A DNA stretch of 64,000 nt from an uncultured Ruminococcus sp. (GTDB lineage Bacteria > Bacillota > Clostridia > Oscillospirales > Acutalibacteraceae). Of the stretch, positions 24,238-38,600 are shown in pieces. The translations under genes were made by a program, and so were the position numbers. The stretch covers positions 487-64,486 of the forward strand of contig CALYBP010000005.1 in NCBI GenBank assembly GCA_944415425.1, written 5' to 3'. A model generated the notes under the pieces. It was not told the DNA's origin. It worked only from the letters and a program-made list of their open reading frames with translations, and ran no database searches. Each line of letters begins with the position of its first letter. Position 1 is the stretch's first letter.

Positions 24238-24358
24238 TCTTACTCCCCCTGATAAATTGTAAGGATTAACAGCTTGAAATATCGAAAGGTAAATCAGATA
24301 TTGACCGATATTAAATCCGGTTGTATAATGTGGTAAATATATTTGAAAGGATTTTTTT

Positions 24359-24952
24359 ATGAATATATGTGTATTCGGCTCATCAAGTGAGCTGATTGAC
24401 AAACAATTTCTTGATACTGCCGAAGCTCTCGGAAGCGCACTCGTAAAAAAAGGACACGGCGTCGTGTTCGGTGCGGGAAAATACGGTGTTATGGGAGCGG
24501 TTGCCCGCGGAGTAACTGCGCAAAAAGGAGAGCTTATCGGCGTAAGTCCTAAGTTTTTTGAGGAACTTGATGTTTTGTATGATAAATGCACAAAGCTTAT
24601 TTTTACCGAAACAATGAGAGAACGCAAAGCCGTCATGGAGGATAATGCCGAAGCTTTCATAATATGTCCGGGTTCAATGGGCACATTTGAAGAGTTTTTT
24701 GAGGTTTTAACTCTCAAACAGCTTAAACGGCATACAAAACCGATTATAATATACAATGTCAAGGGCTATTACAATCCGATGTTTGCAATGCTTGAAAATG
24801 CAATTAACAATAATTTTATGACAAGCGACTGCAAGGGACTTTATTCGGTTGCAAACAGCCTTGACGAGGTATTTTGCCAGCTTGAAAGTTATGTTCCTTT
24901 TTCGTACGATAAATACGCTTTTGTGTCAAAAGGAGATGAAAAAAATGGCTGA
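24359..24952 (+). CDS. LOG family (TIGR00730) nucleotide phosphoribohydrolase
   Basis: VFGSSS, GVMGAVA, TMRERK, PGSMGTFEE (PGGxGTxxE motif). Confidence 0.9.
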   Translation: MNICVFGSSSELIDKQFLDTAEALGSALVKKGHGVVFGAGKYGVMGAVARGVTAQKGELIGVSPKFFEELDVLYDKCTKLIFTETMRERKAVMEDNAEAFIICPGSMGTFEEFFEVLTLKQLKRHTKPIIIYNVKGYYNPMFAMLENAINNNFMTSDCKGLYSVANSLDEVFCQLESYVPFSYDKYAFVSKGDEKNG

Positions 24953-25118
24953 CAGGTGCGAAATGTGCGCTCACTATGTAATTGATGAGGAATACGGAGA
25001 TTATTGCAGCATAAATCTCGATGAAGATGAAATGGAGCGCTTTCTTACACAAAATGTTACCCAGTGCAATTATTTTCAGCTCTATGATGAATATAAAATC
25101 GTAAAAAAGCAAATATGA
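24945..25118 (+). CDS. Small Cys-containing protein (DUF6472-like)
   Basis: MADRCEMCAHY...CSINLDEDEMERFL...CNYFQLYDEYKIVKKQI; RBS AGGAG; overlaps the LOG stop. Confidence 0.75.
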   Translation: MADRCEMCAHYVIDEEYGDYCSINLDEDEMERFLTQNVTQCNYFQLYDEYKIVKKQI

Positions 25119-25218
25119 TGTGCGTTTATTGTTTAAAGAAAGTTTAAACAAAATTTCAGTCTCGCAAATCTGTAAAATAACAGTTTGAGAGTAAATTAAA
25201 ATTGGTTATATATATTAC

Positions 25219-25246
25219 AGGGATACTGTTTCAGTATCCCTTTTTG
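25219..25246 (+). terminator. Intrinsic terminator
   Basis: AGGGATACTG-TTT-CAGTATCCCT followed by TTTT. Confidence 0.75.
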
Positions 25247-25466
25247 CTTATAAAATTGTCTTTTAATATTATTATACCCTATTAAAAAACCGTTTCAAGG
25301 GATTATTTTTTTATTATATTGTCGTATTTACGCTTTGTAATAAAAATATATCCATCCTTATAAATCGGAGATGAAATTGAGAATAATTTCTAATTGTGGT
25401 ATTGCACAAATTTATCATAAATAATTTGTATACGCCTACAAAAATTTGTGAACGGATTACAAATTA

Positions 25467-25495
25467 TTGACTTTTATGTGAAATTAATATAAAAT
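25467..25495 (+). promoter_or_regulatory. SigA-type promoter of the fibre operon
   Basis: TTGACT-N17-TAAAAT about 80 nt upstream of the first subunit gene. Confidence 0.65.
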
Positions 25496-25575
25496 TGCAG
25501 GTATGGGAGGACGAGTTTGTGTAATTTGGGCAGATTACTCGTGCTTTTTTAATCAAACTTTCTGGAGGATCAGTA

Positions 25576-26388
25576 ATGGGCTTTTTGAACTGGATTGCCG
25601 ATGAATCAGACGGCAAAAAGGTACCTTTAAAAAGGCGCAAAAGACTTATAATTTTTGTGGCCCTTATTACTCTGCTCTCAATGACAACATCAACCGTTGC
25701 GTGGTTTTCAATAAACACATTCGCAGGGGTTGATAATCTGGATGTAAAAATCAGTATGAGCGCCCAGCTCAAGGTTGCAATGGAGGATTACGGAACCGAT
25801 CTCGAAAGATACGGCAAGGTTATAACAAACGAAATGATAGACGGATACCTCGCTGATTTTGACACAAGTCTTGAAGAAACGGTTTTGGATCCGGTCACCA
25901 CAACGGACGGCATACGCTTTACCAATCAGCGAGGCGCTGAGAGAGAGCCGAATAACCGTTCATACCTTGAGTTTGAGTGCTATTTTATCGCAACCGAGGA
26001 GATGTGGGTTCATCTTACGACCGAGAGTACCGAGCAAGGTGAGGATGACGGAACAAAGGTCACCACAACTTCGACCGGACCTCAGGCGGATGTAGTGAAT
26101 TGTACGAGAGTCGATTTTTCAACCGAACAGGACGGCACGGCAATTTATGAGCCTAACAAGGCTGCCCCCGTAAACGGTCAGGTTACGTTTGATCTTCCGT
26201 CCGGTGAAATGGAATACTCTGACAGCACAAGAATTTTTCATCTTGAACAGCTCACCCCGACCAAAGTCACGATAAGACTTTGGGTTGACGGAGAGGACCC
26301 GCAGTGCGACGACGATGTGCAGGATGCGCAGCTCGGCGTTCAGCTCGGCTTTATCGGATGTGACGAAAACAACATTCCGATTTCATAA
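25576..26388 (+). CDS. TasA/CalY-like fibre subunit 1 with SipW-type signal peptide
   Basis: KRRKR-hydrophobic-TTSTVAWF signal; shared motifs DPVTTTDG, YLEFECYF and C-terminal LWVDGEDPQC. Confidence 0.7.
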   Translation: MGFLNWIADESDGKKVPLKRRKRLIIFVALITLLSMTTSTVAWFSINTFAGVDNLDVKISMSAQLKVAMEDYGTDLERYGKVITNEMIDGYLADFDTSLEETVLDPVTTTDGIRFTNQRGAEREPNNRSYLEFECYFIATEEMWVHLTTESTEQGEDDGTKVTTTSTGPQADVVNCTRVDFSTEQDGTAIYEPNKAAPVNGQVTFDLPSGEMEYSDSTRIFHLEQLTPTKVTIRLWVDGEDPQCDDDVQDAQLGVQLGFIGCDENNIPIS

Positions 26389-26459
26389 ATAATTCGATTA
26401 CAAAGTTATGAGCGGATCGCAGGATTTTGCTTTGAGCTTTCAAAATAAAAACTCACGGA

Positions 26460-27275
26460 GTGATTAAATTGTTCGGAAAAAACAAATCTAAAATTGAACA
26501 GCCTGTTACTCCCGAGGAGTTAAGTCGATTAAACGATAAAAAGATATCAGACTCCGAAATTGAGCATCTTCATGTAAAAAATGACTCAATAGAGATAGTA
26601 AAGTACAAAAAACGCCGAAAGATACTCAGTATCATTTTAAGCGTCTGTCTTATCGTTTTACTTATTTTGTTTTTGGTGTCAATGCTTGTTACCCAGTGGG
26701 GCGACCTCATCATAAAAGTTGATTCACCCGCCGCTAAGAAGGGCATCGTGCTCAGCGAAGACCCCGAGTTCGAGACGATGGGCGTTTCGCTTTCGGCAGA
26801 GCAGGCTGATGATGTAACAAATATTACATATTCGTGGCTGCCCGTTGACCTTGACACAAGCGAAAACGGAGCTCATAACGGCGATAATTATGTTGCCTAC
26901 ACATTTTACTGCAAAAACAACGGTCAGGAAACGCTTGACTATGACGCTGTGCTTGAGATTACAGGCGCCGCAAAGTCAGCCGACGAAGCCGTAAGAGTTA
27001 TGGTTTATAAGAACGGCGAGCCGTCAATTTACGGCAAGGGCAAGTATGATGACAGAAACACCGCTGAAACCGACTGTACAAAATTTAATACCAATACCGA
27101 GGTAATGTCAACGGCGACAGAAGATTTTGAGGTTGACGATGTTGACAAGTACACTATCGTTATATGGATAGAGGGCAATGATCCCGAATGTATTGACGAT
27201 ATAAGAAACGGTCATGTCAGAATGAGAATGCTTTTCAGCGTTCGTGACGACGAAACAACCGCACCCGCAAATTAA
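26460..27275 (+). CDS. Fibre-subunit paralog with N-terminal transmembrane anchor (no AWF motif)
   Basis: KKRRK followed by a 25-aa TM ending TQWG; YVAYTFYCKN; C-terminal IWIEGNDPEC shared with the neighbours. Confidence 0.7.
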   Translation: MIKLFGKNKSKIEQPVTPEELSRLNDKKISDSEIEHLHVKNDSIEIVKYKKRRKILSIILSVCLIVLLILFLVSMLVTQWGDLIIKVDSPAAKKGIVLSEDPEFETMGVSLSAEQADDVTNITYSWLPVDLDTSENGAHNGDNYVAYTFYCKNNGQETLDYDAVLEITGAAKSADEAVRVMVYKNGEPSIYGKGKYDDRNTAETDCTKFNTNTEVMSTATEDFEVDDVDKYTIVIWIEGNDPECIDDIRNGHVRMRMLFSVRDDETTAPAN

Positions 27276-27366
27276 TAACGGTATTAAGTGCATTTGCACT
27301 GATATAAAAAACATCCCTATGGTGTTTTAGGGACAAAACAAAAATCATTTTAGGAGGAATTTCTCA

Positions 27367-28116
27367 ATGAAAACAACATCAAGAAAGAGATTATTAGTCT
27401 CTTCCGTAGCAATGCTCCTCGTAGCAATGCTCGCACTCGGAACAGCTACATACGCATGGTTCACATCAAGTACAACTGCAACGGCTAACGGTATCAATGT
27501 AAAGACTGTAAAGTCATCAAAGCTTGAGATTTCAAGCGCTACTTCCGAATGGGGTACACTTATTAATTACGGTGTACAGAATAAGGTTCTTCTTCCTGTT
27601 TCTACCGGCAACAGCACAGCTTGGTTTACAGCTGAAGGTCAGTCTTATGACGACGGTACTTTAAAGTCAGGCACAGTTGCATCTCAGTCAGATCTCAACA
27701 GCTATGTTGTTAAGAATCAGCTTAATGTTCACAATGCCGGTGAAGCTGCTGTTGAAAATGTTACAATTAGTTTCAGCGTTCCTAATGACTATCTCCGTGT
27801 AGCTCTTGTTCCTGCTGACGCAAAGGGTGAAAATCAGCCTAACTCAACAAGTGCAACATTTACAGATTGCGTTTATGCAGCAGATACAGCTTCATACACA
27901 GGTCTTACTTCAACTGAAGGTACAGGCGTAGAGATCACTCCAAAGAACAAATATGAAGTACCTGTTGGCACGCTTAACAAGGATGAAGTTAAATACTACA
28001 ATCTCTATGTATGGTTTGAAGGTCAGGATCCTGATTGTAAGGATGCTAAGGCTGGCGCAGTAGTGCCTGACATCGAGTTTACCGTAACAGGTGACACAGT
28101 AAGCGAGATTGGCTGA
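27367..28116 (+). CDS. TasA/CalY-like fibre subunit, likely the major pilin
   Basis: RKR...LALGTATYAWFTS signal; VWFEGQDPDC; AGGAGG RBS; visibly biased codon use (GGT, GCT, AAC, TAC). Confidence 0.78.
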   Translation: MKTTSRKRLLVSSVAMLLVAMLALGTATYAWFTSSTTATANGINVKTVKSSKLEISSATSEWGTLINYGVQNKVLLPVSTGNSTAWFTAEGQSYDDGTLKSGTVASQSDLNSYVVKNQLNVHNAGEAAVENVTISFSVPNDYLRVALVPADAKGENQPNSTSATFTDCVYAADTASYTGLTSTEGTGVEITPKNKYEVPVGTLNKDEVKYYNLYVWFEGQDPDCKDAKAGAVVPDIEFTVTGDTVSEIG

Positions 28117-28170
28117 TTATAACAAATCACAATTTTAATGCAAAAATCTTAAATTAGTTGGAGACCCCTT

Positions 28171-28911
28171 ATGAGCAAAGTGTTAAAAAGAATAATAAAC
28201 ATAATAATTGACATTATTGTTGTGTTGATTCTGATAGTGTCGGTTTTGGTAGTGACGCTGTCGTTAACATCAAAGTCATCGGGGGTCCCCAATATTTTCG
28301 GAATTGCGCCCTTAAGCGTGCAGACAGGGTCAATGGAAGATACCCTAAATGAGGGAGATCTTATCTTTTCAAAAGTGACCGATTACACCGAAAAATATCA
28401 AAAAGGGGATATAGTTACATTCCCCATTGAAGTTAACGGCGAAACGGTCTTAAACACGCACAGGATAGTGGAAGTAATAAATGACGACAATATTATCTAC
28501 TACCGAACACAGGGCGACAATTCAAAGACTAATCCTGAGCCGGACGATGAGCTTCAGACATCCTCATCGATCGTGGCTAAGTACACGAACTTTAAAATTG
28601 CGGGATTGGGTAATGTATTGAGCTTTATAAGGACGCAGCTCGGATTTTTCCTCTGTGTGCTGCTTCCGATGATCATTTTCTTTGTGTACGAAGCAATAAG
28701 AGTTGTAATAAACATAATTGCTTACAGCAAGGAAAAGGCTGTTGAGGAGGCTAAGGCCGCCGTAGGAGGTACACAGCTTACCGAAGAACAGAAGAAGCAG
28801 GCTATTGAAGAATATCTTGCGTCAATCGGGGAGAGCACAACAGCTCAGACGGAAAATGAGCCAGCGGTACAAACACCTGCCGAAGGCGATAATTCCGAGA
28901 GTGAAAGCTAA
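28171..28911 (+). CDS. sipW: Signal peptidase I, SipW/archaeal (ER) type
   Basis: SVQTGSMEDTL (catalytic Ser), NTHRIV (His), TQGDNS (Asp); N- and C-terminal TM. Confidence 0.88.
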   Translation: MSKVLKRIINIIIDIIVVLILIVSVLVVTLSLTSKSSGVPNIFGIAPLSVQTGSMEDTLNEGDLIFSKVTDYTEKYQKGDIVTFPIEVNGETVLNTHRIVEVINDDNIIYYRTQGDNSKTNPEPDDELQTSSSIVAKYTNFKIAGLGNVLSFIRTQLGFFLCVLLPMIIFFVYEAIRVVINIIAYSKEKAVEEAKAAVGGTQLTEEQKKQAIEEYLASIGESTTAQTENEPAVQTPAEGDNSESES

Positions 28912-28966
28912 AGCTTACTTATAATAAATTTGTCCCTATACACATAGGTGTATTATAGTAACCGAG

Positions 28967-28999
28967 TATTTCTTTTCCGTTTTGTGCGGAAAAGAAATA
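28967..28999 (+). other. Intergenic stem-loop inside the fibre operon
   Basis: TATTTCTTTTCCGT-TTTGT-GCGGAAAAGAAATA. A second hairpin AGCGGAA-N8-TTCCGCT lies near 29027-29048. Confidence 0.6.
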
Positions 29000-29105
29000 T
29001 TGTGTTACCGAATACGGGATGTTTTAAGCGGAATAAATTGTTTCCGCTGTGTGTTTTTTGACGCAGAATGCGTCGAGGTAGATTTTTTTAAGGAGACGAA
29101 GTACC

Positions 29106-30644
29106 GTGGATACAGTATTTGGATTTCTGTTTGAATTTCTCGGTCAGTTTTTTGGCTCACTGTGGTCAATTATAACAGGCTTGTTTACAGGAATAGGAGA
29201 GGCTTTTAATTTTCCCGCCTATGTCAACATAATAAACGGCTATACCACTGAGCTCGGAGGACTTGCCTGGGGTATTGCGATTCTTGCAATAGTTCTTCTT
29301 GCAGCGGTGCTTGCGCTTATTGTATGGCTTATTATCGTCGCCGTAAAAAAGTTTATCCGTTCTCATCGCAGAAGAAAAGATACGGAATCTCTTGTTAAAG
29401 AGGTTCAGGCGCTCAATAAGGAGGTTATGAGACTTAACCTTGAAAAGGATAAAATTCTTTCGATGAAAGTTTCTCAGATAGGTCTTAATCCCAACGAGAT
29501 TGCCGAGCTTACCGGCGAAGAAATCGAATCTCTCAACAACGGCGAAGAAGATCCCGAGGCTAACGGCTCGCGCTTCTACAAGCTTACCGAGATCGACGAT
29601 CTCTGGTCGGAGTATGTTCCGCCTATCTATGACAATACAATTACATTGCCTGAGTTCTGCGACCGCTTCCGCTTGTTTGCCTGCTCACAGCTCGGTCTGT
29701 ATTACGACATCAAGATAATTCGTCTTTTCGTTGCGGCTTTTGCTTCAACACGACTGATTATTCTTCAAGGTATTTCAGGTACAGGTAAAACTTCACTTCC
29801 GTATGCGTTCGGAAAATTTGTTAATAATCCCGCGGTTATTGCTTCAGTACAGCCGTCTTGGCGTGACCGAAGCGAGCTGTTCGGATATTTCAATGAATTT
29901 ACAAAGAAATACAACGAAACCGAGCTTCTGCGCGCTATGTACGAGGCTTCTTACAACGAGAATGTTTACACGGTAATCCTCGATGAAATGAACATCGCAC
30001 GTGTTGAGTACTACTTTGCGGAGATGCTCTCAATCCTTGAAATGCCGTCGAGGGATGAATGGGTTGTTGATATTGTTCCAAACTCTTGGTCAAACGATCC
30101 TAAGCATATCATAAACGGTCAGATCAAGATTCCGCCGAATATGTGGTATGTCGGAACAGCAAACAACGATGACTCTACTTTTGCAATCACAGATAAGGTA
30201 TATGACCGTGCAATGCCTATTGAAATCAACACAAAGGGCGTTGCGTTTGAGGCTCCGCTTACAGACTCGATCTACATAAACTACAAACATTTTGAAGATC
30301 TCTTAAACGAGGCAAAGGCAAATAATGTTGTGACAAACGAGAGCATCAAGAAAATACTGTTGCTTGACGACTATGTTATTGAACATTTCCGCATAGCTTT
30401 CGGTAACCGTATCGTAAAACAGCTTCGTGATTTTGTTCCGGCGTATGTCGGATGCGGCGGCACAGAGATTGACGGTCTTGACTATGTACTTGCAAGAAAG
30501 GTGTTCAGAAAGTTTGAATCTCTTAACCTTTCGTATATCAGAGATGAAATAGACGGTCTTTGTGCTTATATTGACGAGCTTTTCGGCGAAGAAAATATGA
30601 ATGAATGCAAGGATTATCTGCGTATGCTCAAAAAGCTTGTATAA
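29106..30644 (+). CDS. McrB-family AAA+ NTPase with N-terminal membrane segments and short coiled coil
   Basis: Walker A QGISGTGKT; SVQPSW; Walker B ILDEMN; McrB-type GTANNDDST (NxxD); DKVYDRA. Residues 1-80 are hydrophobic. Confidence 0.8.
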   Translation: MDTVFGFLFEFLGQFFGSLWSIITGLFTGIGEAFNFPAYVNIINGYTTELGGLAWGIAILAIVLLAAVLALIVWLIIVAVKKFIRSHRRRKDTESLVKEVQALNKEVMRLNLEKDKILSMKVSQIGLNPNEIAELTGEEIESLNNGEEDPEANGSRFYKLTEIDDLWSEYVPPIYDNTITLPEFCDRFRLFACSQLGLYYDIKIIRLFVAAFASTRLIILQGISGTGKTSLPYAFGKFVNNPAVIASVQPSWRDRSELFGYFNEFTKKYNETELLRAMYEASYNENVYTVILDEMNIARVEYYFAEMLSILEMPSRDEWVVDIVPNSWSNDPKHIINGQIKIPPNMWYVGTANNDDSTFAITDKVYDRAMPIEINTKGVAFEAPLTDSIYINYKHFEDLLNEAKANNVVTNESIKKILLLDDYVIEHFRIAFGNRIVKQLRDFVPAYVGCGGTEIDGLDYVLARKVFRKFESLNLSYIRDEIDGLCAYIDELFGEENMNECKDYLRMLKKLV

Positions 30645-30655
30645 TTAGGCAAAAT

Positions 30656-30678
30656 AAGGGCGAACTTTGTTCGCCCTT
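30656..30678 (+). other. Intergenic stem-loop
   Basis: Perfect AAGGGCGAAC-TTT-GTTCGCCCTT between the AAA and DUF2357 genes. Confidence 0.65.
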
Positions 30679-30719
30679 TAGTCAGTATTTGATTTGTATC
30701 GGTGAAGGAGTAGCAGCTT

Positions 30720-32894
30720 ATGGCTGATTTCGGAAAATATTACAGAGCTTATATGTATATGCAGGAGCTTCTGAAAAGTGACTTTACATACAATTACATA
30801 AATGAAAGCTTAAAAGACGCTGATAAGGGCGAGGATACCCTCGAGGGCAAGACTAACGAAAAAGTCATTGATATGGACTGGGTTGAGGCCATTGAGGAGA
30901 CGCTTCCGTATATACAAAAAGCCATTGATGAGCAGAGGCGTTTTATCAAACAGGTTGAAAATGTTGTGCGCATCGAGCTTGCAAAAAAGGTAGGTCCGGA
31001 TTCGGTAAAGCATCTTTCTCAGCATACCAACTTCATCGCAAAGGTAGAGGACGGTATGGTTACTCCGAACAAGATTTTGACTGTTGAGCGCGAGGAGAGC
31101 TTTGCGATTTACGAAAACCGTGTGCTTATGACATTGATACGCAAGGCGCTTCGTTTTGTTGACGATAAATATTCAAAAATGAAGGATGTGCCCAACGACA
31201 GCTATAATAATATTCAAGTAAAAAGACAGCTTCAGTTTCACGAGAAAAAAGTTGATTTTATTATAAACTATGTCAATGAATCTCACGAAACACTTGCCGA
31301 TGACTTAGATGTTCTTGATGTTTCACAGCTTTCGGACTTTGACAGAATAAGAAGAATAAGAACGACGCTCAACGAGTTTTTAAACACTCAGCTAATGCGT
31401 GAGATCGCAAAAGAGCCTGAGGTTCATCCGCCTATAACGCAGACTAACCTGCTTAAAAAGAATCCCAACTTTAAAAAAGCCATGGATTTATGGAATTTCC
31501 TCGACAGCTACAAGCGCAAGGGCTTTGAGATAGTCGGAGAGACATATCAGGGCAAAATGACGGAAGATGTACAGCAGGACATATATTTTGCTATGGGATT
31601 TGAGCATTTTATAATGTCAATAGCCACTAATAAGGGATTGCGCAATATTCTTCAGCAAAAGTATGAAGAAGAAAACGAAAGGATAGCGGAGGAACAGGCA
31701 AAGCCGGAAAAAACCCGTGAGTCTGTTATGAAAGCGCAGATAGACGCTGTAAGGAAAGAAGAAATGGAAATCCGTCTGCGTGAAATCCGCGAAAGAGAGA
31801 AGAAAATTCTTGATCTCAATAACGAGATAAAGAATCTAAAGGTAACTCTCGAACAGAAGGAACAGCAGATTATGACCCTGAAGGGACAGGTTTCGGCGCT
31901 TCAGGATCAGATAGAGGAACTAAAGAGAGAGCTGAAAGAAACAAAGCTCAAGCTTCTTGAGGCAGAAAACGAAATAAAAGCGCTCAAAGAAGAAAATCAA
32001 GCCCTCAAGGCTGAAATCGAAGAGCTTAACAAAACTATTGATTCCTTAAACAAGGAAATAAAAAGGCTCAATGAGCAGATAATCGTCCTTAACGACCGTA
32101 TTCAGGTGCTTATGCAGGAAAATGCCAGGATGCAGTCTAAGATAAAAGAGCAGGAAGAGGTAATTGAGGAGCAAAACGCAAAAATTGAGCAGCTCGAAGC
32201 ACAGGTAGCAGAGCAGCTTGCAAAAATTGCAGCTCTTAATGATAATCTTGCAAAATGTGAATCGGAAATTGAGGAAAACCATAAAAAGATTACTTATCTT
32301 ACCGATAAGACCGAATCGCTTACAAATATCCTTAATCTTGAGAGAAAGACGAATCAGGAGCGCATTGCGAAGATGAATGCCGATTTCGAGGAAAAAACAA
32401 GGGCGGCAAAAGAAGCGCATGACGCCGAGGTGAAATCTCTCAAACAGGATATTGACGAAGCAAATACGGCTCACGCAAAGCATATAGCGGAACTTAATGA
32501 GGAATTTGCCGACAAAGCAAATTTGGCAGAGCAAAGGCGCATAAGAGAGCTTGCGTTAAAGCAGACGGAGCATGAAAAGCAAATTGAGCAGATAAAGCAG
32601 GCTAATACAAATGCTGCAGCGGCCGTTGACGCAAAGCACGCTTCTGAAATCAGAAAGGTGCAAAAGTCAGTTGACAAGCGTGTAGACGCAGCCAAAAAAG
32701 CGGCCGAAAAGCAGTATATGTCGATGATTAAGCAGCTAAAGGCACAGCATGCTAAGGAGCTTGCCGAAGCAAAGCGCAAGGCAAGGGAAGAAGTAAGGCT
32801 TGCTAAGCAAAAATCAAAAAAAGAAATCAGGCTCGTAAAAGAAAAGGCAAGAAAAAATATGTTTACGCAGGAAGAGCTTGACGAGATAAATTAA
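30720..32894 (+). CDS. DUF2357 (McrC-like N-terminal domain) protein fused to a long coiled coil
   Basis: SFAIYENRVLMTL and PPITQTNLLKKNPNFKKAMDLW resemble DUF2357. The C-terminal ~400 aa are continuous heptad-like E/K/Q/A/L sequence with no PD-(D/E)XK motif visible. Confidence 0.7.
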   Translation: MADFGKYYRAYMYMQELLKSDFTYNYINESLKDADKGEDTLEGKTNEKVIDMDWVEAIEETLPYIQKAIDEQRRFIKQVENVVRIELAKKVGPDSVKHLSQHTNFIAKVEDGMVTPNKILTVEREESFAIYENRVLMTLIRKALRFVDDKYSKMKDVPNDSYNNIQVKRQLQFHEKKVDFIINYVNESHETLADDLDVLDVSQLSDFDRIRRIRTTLNEFLNTQLMREIAKEPEVHPPITQTNLLKKNPNFKKAMDLWNFLDSYKRKGFEIVGETYQGKMTEDVQQDIYFAMGFEHFIMSIATNKGLRNILQQKYEEENERIAEEQAKPEKTRESVMKAQIDAVRKEEMEIRLREIREREKKILDLNNEIKNLKVTLEQKEQQIMTLKGQVSALQDQIEELKRELKETKLKLLEAENEIKALKEENQALKAEIEELNKTIDSLNKEIKRLNEQIIVLNDRIQVLMQENARMQSKIKEQEEVIEEQNAKIEQLEAQVAEQLAKIAALNDNLAKCESEIEENHKKITYLTDKTESLTNILNLERKTNQERIAKMNADFEEKTRAAKEAHDAEVKSLKQDIDEANTAHAKHIAELNEEFADKANLAEQRRIRELALKQTEHEKQIEQIKQANTNAAAAVDAKHASEIRKVQKSVDKRVDAAKKAAEKQYMSMIKQLKAQHAKELAEAKRKAREEVRLAKQKSKKEIRLVKEKARKNMFTQEELDEIN

Positions 32895-32918
32895 TTTTGT
32901 TTTCAGAAAGGCAAACTG

Positions 32919-33872
32919 ATGGAAAATAACACAGCGCCCAGCAGACACACGGGCAGAATGATTACGAAAAATTTAATAATTCTGCTTGTGCTTGCCGTTG
33001 TGGCTTTCTTGGCGATTTGGGCGTGGTTTACAAGCAGACAGACGGTGCAGGCAGGGGGAATAAACATTGAATGTAATGCCCCGGACGGGGTTGAAATTGC
33101 TGTTGTTGCTCCCGGCGAAACGCCTGAGGAGGCTGATTATAAGGACGGCGGAATAATAATTAAAGATCAGCAGTTTCTTGAAGATTTTTCGCTGTCAGAG
33201 GTAACATCAGACGGCATTAATTTTTACAAGCCTGCGCTTGTTCAGTCAAACGGAACAGCCAGCCCGGATCTTGACGCCGACTGGGATGTTGCCGTTGCAA
33301 ATGAAAATTATTTGAGTTTTGACCTTTATATCCGTTCAAAATCAAGTCAGATAGTTTCGCTTTCGACAAAGTCAAAATTTTCCCCGCTTTCGTCTGTGCT
33401 TACAGGCGCAAACTGCGGAAACAAAAGTGAATACGGTGACTTTTCAAAGGACTGCATTGTCGGGGCTTCAAGATTTTCCGTTGTTAATAGTGACAGCACC
33501 GCAAGGGAGCTGCTTTGGATTCCTCGTCCCGATCTGTATTTCAGCTCGGAGGGTACTCCGTCTGTTACTGAGAATGTAACGGCGGATCAGTACGACGGAA
33601 TAACATATAATCATTACTATTACGAGGTTAACGGTTCACAGAAAACCCTGAAAACCCTGGACAGCAGCCTTGTTACAACATCGGCGCTTATCGGTTCGGA
33701 GTATGTTCTCCCCAAAAAATCCGAAATTGCACGGCTCAGTATCAGAGGCGACGACGGTTACTACACAAACCATGTTACGTGCAATATGTGGATTGAGGGT
33801 GAGGATACCGAGGACAGACTTGCTCTTGTAAAGGGTCAGTTCAAAATTGTTCTTGATTTAACTATAAAATAA
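32919..33872 (+). CDS. TasA/CalY-like fibre subunit with SipW-type signal
   Basis: VAFLAIWAWFTS; SEVTSDGINFYKP; YLSFDLYIRS; MWIEGEDTE. Confidence 0.72.
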   Translation: MENNTAPSRHTGRMITKNLIILLVLAVVAFLAIWAWFTSRQTVQAGGINIECNAPDGVEIAVVAPGETPEEADYKDGGIIIKDQQFLEDFSLSEVTSDGINFYKPALVQSNGTASPDLDADWDVAVANENYLSFDLYIRSKSSQIVSLSTKSKFSPLSSVLTGANCGNKSEYGDFSKDCIVGASRFSVVNSDSTARELLWIPRPDLYFSSEGTPSVTENVTADQYDGITYNHYYYEVNGSQKTLKTLDSSLVTTSALIGSEYVLPKKSEIARLSIRGDDGYYTNHVTCNMWIEGEDTEDRLALVKGQFKIVLDLTIK

Positions 33873-33913
33873 AGTATAATTAAATTGAGATTGTACGGAA
33901 AGGAGATGAGAGC

Positions 33914-35671
33914 GTGAAAATTGAAAATCCTTTTGGTTTTCTTACGGAAGCTCTTTCGCACAGAAGAATAGGCGACAAAAAAAAGCTTGCGGCTTCATAT
34001 CTCTCAATCTTCCTTGCTTTTTTACTTTTGGTTACTTCAACTCTGGCGTGGTTTACCGTAAATGACACCGCAGATGTATCTTCCGATACTTTTACGATGG
34101 AATCGGTTTCAGGCCTAAGAGTTAATGACGGTGAGGATTTGAAAAATCACATTTCCATTGAAAATCTTATGCTTGCCGAAGCTTCAAGCGTTGACGGAAG
34201 AAATATGTACTTCCCGACAACGGGCACATTTACGGGCAACACTTCGGAAATGGTGTTCAGAGAGGGCAATGCCGGAGATAAAAACGAAAATTACTGCTAT
34301 GAGGAATTTAATTTAAAAGGTGACTCTGGCGTTACATATGTATATATAAAAAGTTACTCTGTTACTGTTGACCGCAAGCAGGGGGATCAGACGGTATCGG
34401 AGGTTTTTGACGGTTCTACAAAAATCACCTACGACAGCAGCGGTGTTCCGATTGCCCAGGAAAAGCACGCAGAATGTCCCGTGAGAATTTCTTTTATCGG
34501 CGACAGCTCGCAAACTCCTATTGTGCTTGACCCGTCTGCTCTTATCAACAATTACGCAACCGACTACAATGCTGTTGCCACGATTGATGAAAACGGAAAG
34601 GCATCAACATTGAAGTCTGAGGCTTCTTCGTTTTCCGACTACTATTATGCAACAGGCAAGCCCATATTCACGTTGGTCGGTTCTCAGCCTCTGACGGTTG
34701 CTATGGTTGTATGGCTTGAGGGCACAAGCGAAGCCTGCGACCAGTACGCAGGGCAGAATATTTCAATAGATATTGAGCTTGAGAGTAACTGGACAAATAT
34801 GGATTATATCACATTTGTCGATGATACCCTGCCCGATAATGACGGCGGAACATCGCATTGGGTAAACAGCGCAAATGACTGCTTTGTTGTTATGAGTTAT
34901 AAGGATATTAACGCCGACGGAGCTACAAAGTCGGTAGTTATGAAGCAGGAGGATACATACGAGTGGATGGCTCCTATCCCCGATAATATAATAACCGACA
35001 TATCTTTTTACAGATACAGCCTCAACGAGGAAATCATTTATAACGCTTGGCACACTTTTGAGGGTGTGGACGATCAGCTCAACAAGACATCGAGTAACTG
35101 GGCTTTGCAGGAGGTCGGTCCCGATAAGCTTCAGGAATACCGTACAAGCGACGGTACTTCAAGCGGTGAGATAGAGAGGGTTTACACAGCCCGAAGGGGT
35201 AACGGCTACGGTATGGTAGCCGAGGATGATGAAAATTTGCAGAGAAAACGACTTTCTCCGTGTATCGGATATTGGGGAACACCGCAAGGTTCTCAAGAAA
35301 CTACTGTTGCTACAACATCGCCGGACGGTGAAACAACTCCGACAGGTTCCGGAACTCCGGATGGTTGGGTTACAATAACTGTTTCTCTCGGACAGATTAG
35401 ACCTTGGGTACAGGGAAATCTCGAAAATGACGGTTATGAGCTGTATGTTGAGTTCAGCGACGGTAACCTTGTAAAAATGGAAAGAAAAAATATCGACTAT
35501 TATGAAAACAGTGCGGTGACGGCAAAGCTTAACACTACGCTGAAGTGCTTTACTCTTAAAAGTGCGTCGGATACAAAGTATCTGTCGCTTGAGTCCCCGG
35601 AATTGATTACAAGCAACAGAAATATGTCGTTCCAGATGACAAACGATGATACTGTTATAAGAACAGGATAA
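33914..35671 (+). CDS. Fibre subunit with C-terminal accessory domains (minor pilin/adhesin)
   Basis: LVTSTLAWFT; EASSVDGRNMYFP; VWLEGTSEAC; then two further Trp-rich beta domains separated by a Thr/Pro linker. Confidence 0.7.
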   Translation: MKIENPFGFLTEALSHRRIGDKKKLAASYLSIFLAFLLLVTSTLAWFTVNDTADVSSDTFTMESVSGLRVNDGEDLKNHISIENLMLAEASSVDGRNMYFPTTGTFTGNTSEMVFREGNAGDKNENYCYEEFNLKGDSGVTYVYIKSYSVTVDRKQGDQTVSEVFDGSTKITYDSSGVPIAQEKHAECPVRISFIGDSSQTPIVLDPSALINNYATDYNAVATIDENGKASTLKSEASSFSDYYYATGKPIFTLVGSQPLTVAMVVWLEGTSEACDQYAGQNISIDIELESNWTNMDYITFVDDTLPDNDGGTSHWVNSANDCFVVMSYKDINADGATKSVVMKQEDTYEWMAPIPDNIITDISFYRYSLNEEIIYNAWHTFEGVDDQLNKTSSNWALQEVGPDKLQEYRTSDGTSSGEIERVYTARRGNGYGMVAEDDENLQRKRLSPCIGYWGTPQGSQETTVATTSPDGETTPTGSGTPDGWVTITVSLGQIRPWVQGNLENDGYELYVEFSDGNLVKMERKNIDYYENSAVTAKLNTTLKCFTLKSASDTKYLSLESPELITSNRNMSFQMTNDDTVIRTG

Positions 35672-35686
35672 AAAGGAGGTGTCACG

Positions 35687-38600
35687 GTGAGAAATAAATT
35701 ATTGCAGATAAGGCAGGCCGTAAAAAAGAATACTAAGTCCCGCTATGGCTTTTTGCTGTCCGCCGTGGCGCTTATTGAGGTAATTATGATATTGGTCGTT
35801 TCTACATTTGCATGGGTTGAAACGATTTCATCAATCAAAATCAGCAACACGCTGGGAAATATCAAGACATATGTTTACACAAACGCCGAGGTGGGTACCG
35901 GCACAGGCTATTCGGGACAGCCTATTAACCTTTCCGATTACTTTTTAGCGTCGGGAAATATCCACCTTTCTTCTGCGTCAAGCGCAAACGGCGAGGATTT
36001 TTATTTCCCTCAGGTAGCTAACGCAAATGCCTCAAGCAATCTGTACAGAAAAGGCTCAATAAACGATAAGAACACAAATTATATCAGCTTTTCATTCAGG
36101 GTTCAGGCAAAGGGCACGAGCGCAAACTTTTATTTTGACAAGGTGCCTACCTTTAAGATTGGGGACACGGTTGTTGATGACAATACCGTAAGGCTTGCCG
36201 TTTCTTCATACGACGAGGAAACCAACACGAAGGACGCAACCAGGGTCTACTCATATAACGCGTTAGACAGCGAGTATGTGGTGGGCGATGTAGACGGTAG
36301 TTCTGTTGCGACAACGAAAATATACGCTTTTGAGGATTATGACAATAAAAACGACAGCGAAGAAAACATCCTGTTTTCTGTCGATAAAGACAAGTCAAAG
36401 ATAGTCACTCTTACGCTTTGGCTTCAGGATCCCGAAAAAACCTCAGATTTTGCGGGAAAATCCGTAACGGCGGATGATTTTAAGATTGTAACGAGTGTAA
36501 AATATACTACTATCAATTTTATAGACAGAACGTCTGCCCACAACAGCGCGGATGCAACAAAACCGACATGGAACTGGGTAGGCAACGACAGCGCAAATCT
36601 TTGGATTTGTACGGCTTCGGGAGAAGTGTTTAAAATGAATAAGGTTGAAAACAGCGATCCCGATTCCGCAGATGCGCCTAAATGGACGGTGACTGTCCCC
36701 ACAGACAGTCTGGGTGACACAAACGGCGATTTTTATTTTTACAGAACCGATGATGTTGTGACGAGTCCTCTGCCGAATAGCTATTGGAATTTCTGGAAAA
36801 CAAAGCTTTCGCAAGCGGGTACGGCGACCGTGCCGACATATACCGCATACGGCAATACAAAGCCGGGTTCAAGCGAGGGCTACGGAACATGGGACGATGT
36901 GGCCGAAATCAAGGTGCTCGGCGATGATGCTGAGGATATTTTGAAAACACCTGCCGACGGGGAAAATCCGCAGGCGCTTACTTTGCAGACAGACAACGGA
37001 ACATCCGTGCCGATGAACTGGAACAGGAATTTCTGGAGAGCCTACATACCCAACGATTCTGATTCAAAAAATTTGAAACTCACATTTTCAAACGGTTCGC
37101 AAAATTACAGCATAGACGCGGTAAACCGTGATTTAACCGAGAATGCTTCAACATTCCGTGTAACATCGGCTACCACGGGTTACTGGGAGCCGCCTGCAAT
37201 TATTAAGGCGGTAGTACCGCAGGAGTATGCCTCTATGGGTAAGGTAGAGGTCAGCGGCGGACCCGTAGGTGCGACAACCGTTAAGGTAACAAAGGGAACG
37301 ACCGTTAAGTTTACGGCAGCACCTGTATCGGACGGATACGTTTTTGAGGGGTGGTATTCTGACCCCGATTGCACTAAGCTTGTACAGAAAACAAGCGAAT
37401 TCAGTTTTACACCGCCCGAAAAGGATAAAACATACACATACTACGCAAAATTTCAGTATAACGTGCGCCTTACCGCAAAAACCGACGGGGTAGAGGGTGA
37501 CTCTGCGGGCGGTCAGGTTCAGATTAACGACGACGGTACACCCGGCGCTAAGGTAAGCCTGCCTGTTTTGAAGGGCGGCTCGGTAAAGCTTATAGCCCTG
37601 CCTAATACGGAAGATTACGAGTTTATGGGCTGGTATGATACTAACAATGAGTTGGTTTATGACAGTACACAAACCACCGTGAGTATAACAAATTTACAAA
37701 AACCAATAAACCTTTTTGCGGTATATAATGTTAAAAAATTTGTGCTTGAGGCTTACGCTTCAACGGATGCGATAAAGGAAAACGACAAGGGTGGTACTGT
37801 AAAATTTGATTCGCAGACATCCTCAGGCGCATACGCAAGGGTTAAGGTTGCTTTCACGGGTGAGGCAACGTTCATGGCTTTTGTAAACGATATTGACGGC
37901 TATGAATTTGCCGGTTGGTACAGCGACGAGGCATGCACAAACCTTGTTACAAAGGAACTTACATACAAGGCGGATAAAAACACGAAGTACAAGACGATGT
38001 ATGCGAAATTCGTGTTGAAAAAGTATGACGCACAGGCTGATGTCATCACAAATTTTGACGAAAACAATAAGTCGGGCGGTACTGTTCAGATTTCTGCCGA
38101 CGGAGTTACCACTCCGGCCGGTTCAAGCGCCTCAACAAAGGTTACTCACGGAACATCAGCAAAGTTTACTGCCAACGCAAACGACGGATACAGCTTTGCA
38201 GGCTGGTACAGCAGTGCAAGCGGCGGCGAGCTTTTAAGTGAGAACGAGGTTTATACCGCTGACGGCGTTGCAGGCGATATAAAGGTGTATGCAATGTTTA
38301 AACAAGTGTTCACCGTTTCGCTTGCCTCAAAAACCGATGGGGAAATAAGCGGAGTCGGCGGCTCTGTTAAGGCCGGTTCAGGTGCTGAGGGCGCAATGTC
38401 TTCTGTAAGCGTTAACTACGGCGACAGCGTTATTGTTACCGCAACTCCAGCGGACATAAGTTACAGCTTTATAAAGTGGACTGATGCTGAGGGCACATCT
38501 TTCGGTGCGGAGCAGGAAATTACTCTTTCAAATGTGAAAAACGACATTTCGCTTTATGCCGAATTTGTTAAAAAGACATTTACAATAGAGGCCTATGCTG

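What the first reader, a model, noticed from the sequence alone, without database searches (positions are those of the whole stretch)
31640..32894. McrC-like partner has a ~400-aa coiled coil where the nuclease should be
Seen: after the DUF2357-like region the sequence becomes uninterrupted heptads (LKGQVSALQDQIEELKRELKETKLKLLEAENEIKALKEENQALKAEIEELNK...) ending in a basic tail, and I see no PD-(D/E)XK motif. Known: coiled-coil McrBC variants (CoCoNuTs) retain nuclease domains. Inference: a nuclease-free rod tens of nm long acting as a ruler, tether or cytoskeletal element.
Basis: partly seen in the sequence, partly recalled or inferred. Interest (0 to 1): 0.65.

Follow-up and report, generated by a model that had tools for sequence, protein, structure and literature searches.

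The report
Nuclease-free coiled-coil McrC partner (CoCoPALM)
This gut Ruminococcus gene encodes a relative of the restriction-enzyme subunit McrC that has a roughly 400-residue helical rod where the DNA-cutting domain normally sits, and it belongs to a surface-fibre gene cluster type named "CoCoPALM" in 2024 whose function has not been tested.

Summary
The 724-aa protein (30720-32894) has a McrC-type N-domain (DUF2357). All 58 family members scanned match that Pfam family, and the only confident PDB fold match is the McrC chain of E. coli McrBC. Residues ~305-711 are predicted as almost unbroken alpha-helix. Heptad periodicity is strong (z = 10 against shuffles), and no nuclease motif or fold was found.

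The partner gene encodes a membrane-anchored McrB-like NTPase whose catalytic motifs are invariant in 80 orthologues. The pair sits inside a 16.6-kb cluster with two SipW-type signal peptidases and seven exported or membrane-anchored fibre-type proteins, one of which carries a CBM26 starch-binding module. Every gene in the cluster was scanned and none is a nuclease.

[quoted passage not shown] It is therefore a new member of a known but uncharacterised kind.

New detail from this work:
- The rod is lineage-specific. Partners are 359-389 aa in Bacilli-type loci and 600-963 aa in the Ruminococcus clade, while the NTPase keeps a constant length.
- The rod is predicted to be cytoplasmic.
- It ends either in a basic tail plus an acidic MFTxEEL motif, as here, or in a DegV-like domain, as in close relatives.

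A role as a ruler for pilus size is unlikely. A tethering or dimerising arm is plausible but untested.

The parts
25576..26388 (+). Exported fibre-type protein 1 (270 aa) with a hydrophobic segment followed by a ...VAWFS... signal motif
   Evidence: ORF. Orthologues sit in the same position in Ruminococcus-type loci. No Pfam hit.
26460..27275 (+). Membrane-anchored paralogue (271 aa) without the AWF motif
   Evidence: ORF. Conserved position in 56 ORFs of the related loci. No family hit.
27367..28116 (+). Exported protein (249 aa) with a SipW-dependent-type signal peptide (TATYAWFT)
   Evidence: NCBIfam TIGR04088, 19.1 bits against a cut-off of 19. No sequence match to TasA or camelysin in Pfam or the PDB.
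28171..28911 (+). SipW-type signal peptidase I (246 aa) with a ~60-aa acidic cytoplasmic tail
   Evidence: NF046067 SipW E = 1.1e-32, TIGR02228 E = 3e-22, Pfam Peptidase_S26. Two TM segments; tail net charge -9.
29106..30644 (+). Membrane-anchored McrB-like AAA+ NTPase (512 aa): amphipathic N-terminus, TM segment 47-87, short coiled coil, NTPase domain
   Evidence: Best PDB sequence matches are McrB (6hz4 E = 6.5e-4, 6ut6, 7vsr, 6ut3). Weak AAA_5 and McrB HMM hits. PADLOC PDC-M26A E = 8.9e-37. Walker A (GISGTGKTS), Walker B (LDEMN) and NNDD are invariant in 80 of 80 orthologues. The TM segment is followed by a stretch of net charge +5.
30656..30678 (.). 10-bp GC-rich hairpin in the 75-nt spacer between the NTPase gene and the partner gene
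   Evidence: The spacer folds at -20 kcal/mol. Function not tested.
30720..31649 (+). Target protein, residues 1-310: McrC N-terminal (DUF2357) domain with long beta-hairpins
   Evidence: 58 of 58 family members match PF09823. AF2 mean pLDDT 87.8. Foldseek top hit is the McrC chain 6hz4_M, probability 0.97.
31650..32855 (+). Target protein, residues 311-712: alpha-helical rod. Canonical heptads cover ~355-535 (31782-32324), an irregular helix covers 540-711, and the basic tail 640-712 (32637-32855) has net charge +15
32856..32894 (+). Target protein, residues 713-724 plus the stop codon: acidic C-terminal motif NMFTQEELDEIN, conserved as [ML]FTxEEL in relatives that lack a terminal domain
32919..33872 (+). 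Exported AWF-motif protein (317 aa)
33914..35671 (+). Exported AWF-motif protein (585 aa)
35687..40069 (+). 1460-aa exported protein with Flg_new / InlB B-repeats and a CBM26 starch-binding module (putative fibre adhesin)
   Evidence: Pfam Flg_new E = 5e-45, Flg_new_2 E = 6e-37, CBM26 E = 2.8e-11.
40143..41381 (+). Further exported protein (412 aa) with a ...TVTFSWFN... signal motif
   Evidence: No Pfam hit.
41505..42221 (+). Second SipW-type S26 signal peptidase (238 aa) with an acidic cytoplasmic tail
   Evidence: Pfam Peptidase_S26, 23.5 bits against a cut-off of 22.9. Topology and tail charge -5.

Best explanation
The protein is the McrC-like subunit of a CoCoPALM system, a McrBC-derived NTPase module built into a SipW-dependent surface-fibre gene cluster of a gut Ruminococcus.

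Shown here:
- Its N-domain is a DUF2357 / McrC N-terminal domain.
- Its partner is a McrB-type AAA+ NTPase with intact, invariant catalytic motifs and an N-terminal membrane anchor.
- The nuclease is absent and replaced by a ~400-residue helix, and no other nuclease is encoded in the cluster.
- The gene order peptidase, NTPase, partner is conserved across Clostridia and Bacilli-type genomes.

Inferred:
- As in E. coli McrBC, the beta-hairpin-rich N-domain inserts into the ring of the membrane-tethered NTPase and stimulates hydrolysis.
- The rod lies in the cytoplasm. It takes over the bridging role that McrC's nuclease domain plays in McrBC by pairing two partner molecules, and so two rings. 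Alternatively, it tethers the ring to another cytoplasmic or membrane-face component through its basic tail and acidic MFTxEEL end.
- The module couples NTP hydrolysis to processing, export or anchoring of the SipW-cleaved fibre proteins. It does not cut nucleic acid.
- The rod is a lineage-specific accessory, not part of the conserved core.
For: - DUF2357 membership: 58 of 58 family members match, best E = 5.4e-15. A 35%-identical representative scores 37 bits against a cut-off of 23.3.
- The N-domain model has pLDDT 87.8, and McrC (6hz4_M) is the only confident PDB match, at probability 0.97.
- The NTPase's closest solved relatives are McrB proteins, and its Walker A, Walker B and NNDD motifs are invariant in 80 orthologues.
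- Topology: one strong TM segment followed by a +5 stretch in the NTPase, and no hydrophobic segment in the partner, whose highest 19-residue mean hydropathy (Kyte-Doolittle) is 0.73.
- Residues 305-711 are all helix with no fold match to any nuclease. Heptad z = 10.2.
- In 80 of 80 related loci the partner directly follows the NTPase. 56 of 56 well-flanked loci hold an S26 peptidase, and 48 of 56 hold AWF-signal proteins.
- All 13 genes scanned in and next to the cluster lack a nuclease hit.
- Partner length is bimodal, 359-389 aa against 600-963 aa, while the NTPase stays at 506-545 aa except for two extended start calls and two genes cut off at contig ends.
- Bell et al. 2024 describe exactly this architecture as CoCoPALM.
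- Short metatranscriptome contigs 99-100% identical to parts of the gene suggest it is transcribed in gut communities.
Against: - No experiment exists for any CoCoPALM system.
- The interaction of the N-domain with the ring, the oligomeric state and geometry of the rod, and any link to fibre assembly are all inferred.
- The Foldseek match to McrC has a weak E-value (0.014) and a low TM-score (0.28).
- The fibre proteins have no sequence-level match to TasA or camelysin in Pfam or the PDB, so calling them a 'pilus' rests on the signal-peptide type and on context.
- The NTPase matches a PADLOC defence-candidate model, PDC-M26A.
- Indels in the rod are not enriched for multiples of seven (7 of 55), so no register constraint could be shown.
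Confidence: 0.6

Rival explanations
1. The McrB-like/McrC-like pair is still an anti-phage or anti-plasmid defence module (a Type IV restriction derivative or abortive-infection switch). It merely sits in the fibre cluster, or uses the fibre as a sensor, and its effector is encoded elsewhere.
For: - The NTPase matches the PADLOC phage-defence-candidate model PDC-M26A at E = 8.9e-37.
- Its ancestry is McrBC.
- CoCoNuT relatives that lack a McrC nuclease use separate nucleases (PMC11090510).
Against: - No nuclease or other effector is present among the 13 genes scanned.
- The partner has no match to a second PDC-M26 component.
- The pair is embedded in the same position, between the peptidase and exported-protein genes, in 80 loci from different classes of bacteria. 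It is not found in variable defence islands.
- The flanking genes here are housekeeping: citrate synthase, a LOG-family protein and, by the reporter's reading of its untested hydrophobic ORF, a membrane transporter.
- The DNA-reader domain of McrB is replaced by a membrane anchor.
Confidence: 0.12
2. One reading: the rod is a molecular ruler or a cytoskeleton-like filament whose length sets pilus or cell dimensions.
For: - The rod is long. If extended it would span about 56 nm for ~380 helical residues, taking 0.148 nm rise per residue from textbook coiled-coil geometry.
- Its length is polymorphic between close relatives (724, 731, 769, 848 and 963 aa).
- Rod length correlates with the length of the SipW cytoplasmic tail in raw data (Spearman 0.66, p = 1e-6).
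Against: - The rod is predicted to be cytoplasmic, whereas the fibre is extracellular.
- 34 of 73 complete loci lack a rod altogether.
- The correlation with the SipW tail falls to r = 0.26, p = 0.10 after phylogenetic contrasts, and to r = 0.13 when two loci are dropped.
- The NTPase's own coiled coil does not change length along with the rod.
- Much of the 724 versus 848 aa difference is a terminal globular domain, not rod.
Confidence: 0.08
3. The rod folds back on itself as an antiparallel hairpin, like an SMC or Rad50 arm. This would bring the C-terminal motif, or the DegV-like domain in relatives, next to the N-domain and NTPase ring, where it would act as a regulatory lid or lipid sensor rather than a long tether.
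For: - The rod has two halves of similar length with different character: canonical heptads at 355-535 and an irregular helix at 540-711.
- pLDDT is low around 560-600, and there is a helix break at 409-412.
- Relatives end in a domain related to the fatty-acid-binding DegV family (hhalign 70.8%, E = 3.8e-5; the longer relative P0152 has a true DegV hit at 5e-21).
Against:
- The monomer model has a low pTM of 0.39.
- The break positions do not divide the rod into equal arms.
Confidence: 0.15

Closest known systems
[quoted passage not shown]
   Same: - The McrB-like GTPase is fused to an FtsB/FtsL-like TM plus coiled-coil N-terminus.
- It is associated with signal-peptidase genes.
- The McrC homologue carries a coiled coil.
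- All of these were seen here.
   Different: Nothing contradicts membership. The paper gives one paragraph and defers the analysis to a later publication. The following were measured here and are not stated in the paper's main text:
- Rod length is bimodal, and the rod is absent in Bacilli-type loci.
- The rod ends either in a basic tail plus an MFTxEEL motif or in a DegV-like domain.
- No nuclease is present anywhere in the cluster.
- The rod is predicted to be cytoplasmic.
E. coli McrBC Type IV restriction enzyme (PDB 6hz4, 6ut6)
   Same: - An AAA+ GTPase of the McrB clade is paired with a DUF2357 partner encoded directly downstream.
- The partner's N-domain is the best, and only confident, fold match to McrC.
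   Different: - The DNA-binding N-domain of McrB is replaced by a membrane anchor.
- The PD-(D/E)xK nuclease of McrC is replaced by a helical rod.
- The genomic context is secretion and fibre genes, not restriction-modification genes.
CoCoNuT systems (coiled-coil nuclease tandems; same paper)
   Same: - Long coiled coils are fused to McrBC components.
- McrC homologues often lack an active nuclease.
- The GTPase motif reads NxD followed by D or E; it is NNDD here.
   Different: - CoCoNuTs always have an accompanying nuclease (HEPN, PLD or Vsr) and helicase or other RNA-linked genes. None is present here.
- In CoCoNuTs the long coiled coil is mainly on the GTPase. Here it is on the McrC homologue.
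Bacillus subtilis TapA-SipW-TasA biofilm fibre operon
   Same: A dedicated SipW-type signal peptidase is encoded with its exported substrates, which carry the cognate signal peptide.
   Different: - The Bacillus operon has no NTPase and no McrC-like gene.
- The exported proteins here show no sequence-level match to TasA or camelysin.

Membership tests
CoCoPALM (Bell et al. 2024) | McrB-like GTPase of the 'NxD' branch | tested here: inconclusive
   The closest solved relatives are McrB proteins. The motif NNDD is invariant in 80 orthologues and fits 'NxD followed by D'. However, the HMMER alignment to E. coli McrB is ungapped (NNDD against NTAD), so it can also be read as NxxD. No tree against the paper's clades was built.
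CoCoPALM (Bell et al. 2024) | GTPase fused to an FtsB-like transmembrane plus coiled-coil N-terminus | tested here: met
   TM segment 47-87 (mean hydropathy 3.38), followed by KKFIRSHRRRK and a short heptad stretch. Weak FtsL hits: NF053549 E = 8.7e-4 and Pfam FtsL E = 0.22.
CoCoPALM (Bell et al. 2024) | Association with signal-peptidase family genes | tested here: met
   SipW lies directly upstream and a second S26 peptidase lies downstream. 56 of 56 well-flanked related loci contain at least one.
CoCoPALM (Bell et al. 2024) | Coiled coil fused to the McrC (DUF2357) homologue | tested here: met
   DUF2357 in 58 of 58 members. Helix over 305-711 and heptad z = 10.2.
Canonical McrBC Type IV restriction system | PD-(D/E)xK nuclease domain at the C-terminus of McrC | tested here: not met
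   No Pfam, NCBIfam or PADLOC nuclease hit. The C-terminal part is all helix, and Foldseek finds no nuclease.
Canonical McrBC Type IV restriction system | Modified-DNA-binding N-terminal domain on McrB | tested here: not met
   The N-terminus is hydrophobic or TM plus a short coiled coil, and no DNA-reader domain hit was found.
CoCoNuT | A nuclease (HEPN, PLD, Vsr or active PD-(D/E)xK) encoded in tandem with the McrBC homologues | tested here: not met
   All genes from 24359 to 44286 were scanned and none is a nuclease.
TasA/camelysin (Peptidase_M73) fibre proteins | Sequence or fold membership of the exported proteins | tested here: not met
   This was a sequence-level test only. There was no Pfam Peptidase_M73 hit in 36 members and no PDB hit with a single sequence or a profile. 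Only the SipW-type signal peptide is shared.

The most novel reading that the evidence does not exclude
The cytoplasmic rod physically links the membrane-tethered McrB-like ring to the cytoplasmic tails of the SipW peptidases. NTP hydrolysis would then gate when and where fibre subunits are cleaved and released. This would be an NTP-powered assembly platform for signal-peptidase-dependent fibres in single-membrane bacteria, with the rod's basic tail and acidic end as the docking elements. It would be a new class of filament machinery exapted from a restriction enzyme.
Probability: 0.15. Interest if true: 0.8.

Novelty: new member of a known kind. Interest (0 to 1): 0.38.

Why it matters
CoCoPALM would be a clear case of a restriction-enzyme motor reused for building a cell-surface structure, and it is widespread in gut Firmicutes. 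At least 435 of the species-level genomes scanned encode a relative of the NTPase, and the partner's N-domain family has 1,443 clusters at 50% identity.

In this Ruminococcus the cluster also carries a CBM26 starch-binding adhesin, so the system may bear on how resistant-starch degraders attach to their substrate.

This locus adds three constraints for any mechanism. The rod is dispensable for the core system. It is cytoplasmic. It has interchangeable ends. No function has been tested experimentally for any member.

Tried and rejected
1. Single-sequence Pfam scan of the whole protein gave only coiled-coil hits. The DUF2357 link appeared only when the N-domain was scanned alone (E = 0.0012) and across the family.
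2. A profile of the N-domain against PDB sequences found no McrC. Only the fold search did.
3. Foldseek of the full-length model gave no significant hits.
4. Test for heptad-preserving indels: 7 of 55 distinct indels are multiples of seven (p = 0.69). This is uninformative, probably because gap placement in low-complexity helix is noisy.
5. Covariation of rod length with the SipW cytoplasmic tail is strong in raw data (rho = 0.66). It is not significant after independent contrasts (r = 0.26, p = 0.10) and depends on two loci. It is therefore not claimed.
6. c-di-GMP riboswitch control, reported for other CoCoPALM loci in earlier notes of this scan: there is no Rfam match anywhere in this window.
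7. TasA or camelysin identity of the exported proteins found no sequence support.
8. No paper in the library mentions PADLOC 'PDC-M26'.
9. The supplementary files of the CoCoNuT paper that are held as text do not mention CoCoPALM.
Full report
**The observation**

The ORF at 30720-32894 (+) encodes 724 aa, and the finding's coordinates begin at residue 307. Residues 311-724 contain a single Pro and a single Gly and are dominated by E, K, A, L and Q.

A sliding heptad score for this part is 0.469, against 0.251 +/- 0.022 in 100 shuffles (z = 10.2). The register is essentially constant from about residue 355 to 535. From 540 to 711 the periodicity is weaker and changes register several times. The quoted stretch (LKGQVSALQDQIEELKRELKETKLKLLEAENEIK...) lies in the regular part.

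AlphaFold2 on the full length, with 31 homologues, predicts helix for 305-327, 330-408 and 413-711. pLDDT is low around 400-417 and 560-600, and there is no globular C-terminal domain. Residues 640-712 have net charge +15, and the final twelve residues (NMFTQEELDEIN) are acidic.

Pfam, NCBIfam and PADLOC give only generic coiled-coil matches such as SMC, Rad50 and JetC. A Foldseek search of the model against the PDB finds no nuclease and nothing significant.

**The N-terminal domain**

The window protein alone matches Pfam DUF2357, the McrC N-terminal domain, at E = 0.0012, which is below the curated cut-off. The family evidence is clear:
- A search of 1.84 billion representative proteins found 1,443 clusters, and the domain is always at the N-terminus.
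- One 35%-identical representative scores 37 bits against a cut-off of 23.3.
- All 58 members of a diverse alignment match DUF2357, the best at 5.4e-15.

The AF2 model of residues 1-330 is confident (pLDDT 87.8) and rich in long beta-hairpins. Its top PDB match, and the only one with high probability, is the McrC chain of E. coli McrBC (6hz4_M, probability 0.97, E = 0.014). The TM-score is low (0.28), as expected for an elongated multi-lobed domain.

**The partner gene**

The upstream gene (29106-30644) encodes a 512-aa protein whose closest solved relatives by sequence are McrB GTPases of E. coli and Thermococcus. Walker A (GISGTGKTS), Walker B (LDEMN) and the sensor motif NNDD are invariant in all 80 orthologues collected, so it is an active NTPase under selection.

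It has one strong transmembrane segment (47-87) followed by KKFIRSHRRRK. By the positive-inside rule this puts the NTPase domain in the cytoplasm. The target protein has no hydrophobic segment at all. The rod is therefore predicted to be cytoplasmic.

**Context**

The pair sits in a co-directional cluster from 25576 to 42221 with:
- two SipW-type S26 signal peptidases (28171-28911 and 41505-42221);
- six proteins that carry a hydrophobic segment followed by an AWF-type motif, one of which reaches the NCBIfam 'SipW-dependent-type signal peptide' cut-off;
- one membrane-anchored paralogue without that motif.

One of the six is a 1460-aa protein with Listeria-Bacteroides repeats and a CBM26 starch-binding module. 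None of the genes scanned is a nuclease.

A scan of one genome per species returned at least 435 relatives of the NTPase, of which 80 loci were fetched. In all 80 the DUF2357 partner directly follows the NTPase. All 56 loci with adequate flanks contain at least one S26 peptidase, and 48 of them contain recognisable AWF-signal proteins. The loci come from Ruminococcus and other Clostridia and from Bacilli- or Mycoplasmatota-labelled metagenome bins.

**What is known**

Bell et al. [quoted passage not shown]
- the GTPase is fused to an FtsB-like transmembrane and coiled-coil domain;
[quoted passage not shown] The authors name these CoCoPALM and defer them to a later publication. No later paper in the library mentions the name.

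The same paper states that many CoCoNuT McrC homologues lack or have inactivated the nuclease but are then always accompanied by another nuclease.

Three of the four defining CoCoPALM features were met here. The fourth, membership of the NxD branch, is consistent but ambiguous, because NNDD aligns without a gap to E. coli NTAD. I reached this identification from the paper before looking at earlier notes of this scan, which independently file many similar loci under the same name.

**What this locus adds**

1. The rod is not part of the conserved core. Among 73 complete partners, 34 are only 359-389 aa, consisting of the N-domain plus a ~90-residue helical end. The Ruminococcus clade has 600-963 aa. 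The NTPase stays at 506-545 aa except for two extended start calls and two genes cut off at contig ends. Across 150 family representatives the tails range from about 30 to 950 residues and are mostly charged and helical.

2. Close relatives come in two forms. Those of 724-775 aa end, as here, in a basic stretch and a conserved [ML]FTxEEL motif. Those of about 830-960 aa carry an extra ~145-residue globular domain ending in GIYFYRG. That domain aligns to the DegV region of a longer family member (hhalign 70.8%, E = 3.8e-5), and that member has a true Pfam DegV match at 5e-21. It is not a nuclease.

3. Much of the 724 versus 848 aa length polymorphism is this terminal domain, not rod length.

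**Tests of the ruler idea**

Rod length correlates with the length of the SipW cytoplasmic tail in raw data (Spearman 0.66; 0.43 within the long-rod clade). After independent contrasts on an NTPase tree the correlation is r = 0.26 (p = 0.10), and it drops to 0.13 without two loci. This is a hint at best.

Indels in the rod are not enriched for multiples of seven.

The rod is cytoplasmic and missing from nearly half the loci, so a role as a ruler for an extracellular fibre is unlikely. A dimerising or tethering arm remains plausible. By analogy, the McrC nuclease domain bridges two McrB rings in McrBC; that analogy rests on established knowledge of the E. coli complex and was not tested here.

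**Other points**

- The exported proteins have no sequence-level similarity to TasA or camelysin in Pfam or the PDB. 'Pilus' and 'TasA-like' therefore rest on the signal peptide and the peptidase.
- There is no Rfam match in the window, so the c-di-GMP riboswitch control reported for other CoCoPALM loci is not seen here.
- Low-depth metatranscriptome contigs 99-100% identical to pieces of the cluster, including the target gene, suggest transcription in gut and wastewater communities. DNA carry-over cannot be excluded.
- The NTPase matches the PADLOC candidate-defence model PDC-M26A. This keeps a defence reading alive at low probability and shows how such loci could be mis-annotated.

**Verdict**

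It is a new member of the named, uncharacterised CoCoPALM kind. The class is interesting because it appears to be a restriction motor reused in surface-fibre biogenesis. The specific claim of a ruler or cytoskeletal rod is not supported.

Noticed in passing
L010:13749-14198, L025:13699-14148 and 14 other related loci (absent from window 32856-32894): Close relatives of ~830-960 aa carry an extra ~145-aa C-terminal globular domain ending in GIYFYRG. It aligns to the DegV (fatty-acid-binding) region of a longer family member (hhalign 70.8%, E = 3.8e-5), and that member (P0152) has a true Pfam DegV hit at 5e-21. The window protein lacks this domain.
   Followed up: partly
window 32856-32891: There is a short acidic C-terminal motif, [KR]K[NK][ML]FTxEEL, conserved in all relatives that lack the terminal domain (724-775 aa forms). 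It may be a docking peptide.
   Followed up: partly
window 30656-30678: A 10-bp GC-rich hairpin sits in the 75-nt spacer between the NTPase and partner genes. Ruminococcus-type loci have spacers of roughly 20-175 nt, mostly 40-130 nt, while Bacilli-type loci have 0-41 nt. It could set the ratio of the two products, but its conservation was not examined.
   Followed up: no
window 28711-28911 and 42030-42221, against 32637-32855: Both SipW peptidases have acidic cytoplasmic tails of ~60 aa (net -9 and -5), and the rod ends in a +15 basic stretch. Rod length and SipW tail length correlate in raw data (rho = 0.66), but not significantly after phylogenetic contrasts (r = 0.26, p = 0.10).
   Followed up: partly
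window 29106-30644: The NTPase matches PADLOC's candidate-defence model PDC-M26A (E = 8.9e-37), although the locus has no effector and sits in a secretion cluster. Automated defence annotation would probably mislabel it.
   Followed up: partly
window 25576-28116 and 32919-41381: The exported AWF-motif proteins share a C-terminal W-x-E/D-G-x-D-x-x-C motif. They have no Pfam or PDB sequence match to TasA, camelysin or any solved pilin, so their fold family is open.
   Followed up: partly
window 24300-43000: Short contigs from gut and wastewater metatranscriptome runs (X5, X6, X8) match pieces of the cluster at 99-100% identity. This suggests low-level transcription in natural communities, though DNA carry-over cannot be excluded.
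   Followed up: partly
window 1-64000: No Rfam family, not even a complete tRNA, reaches its gathering score anywhere in the 64-kb window.
   Followed up: no
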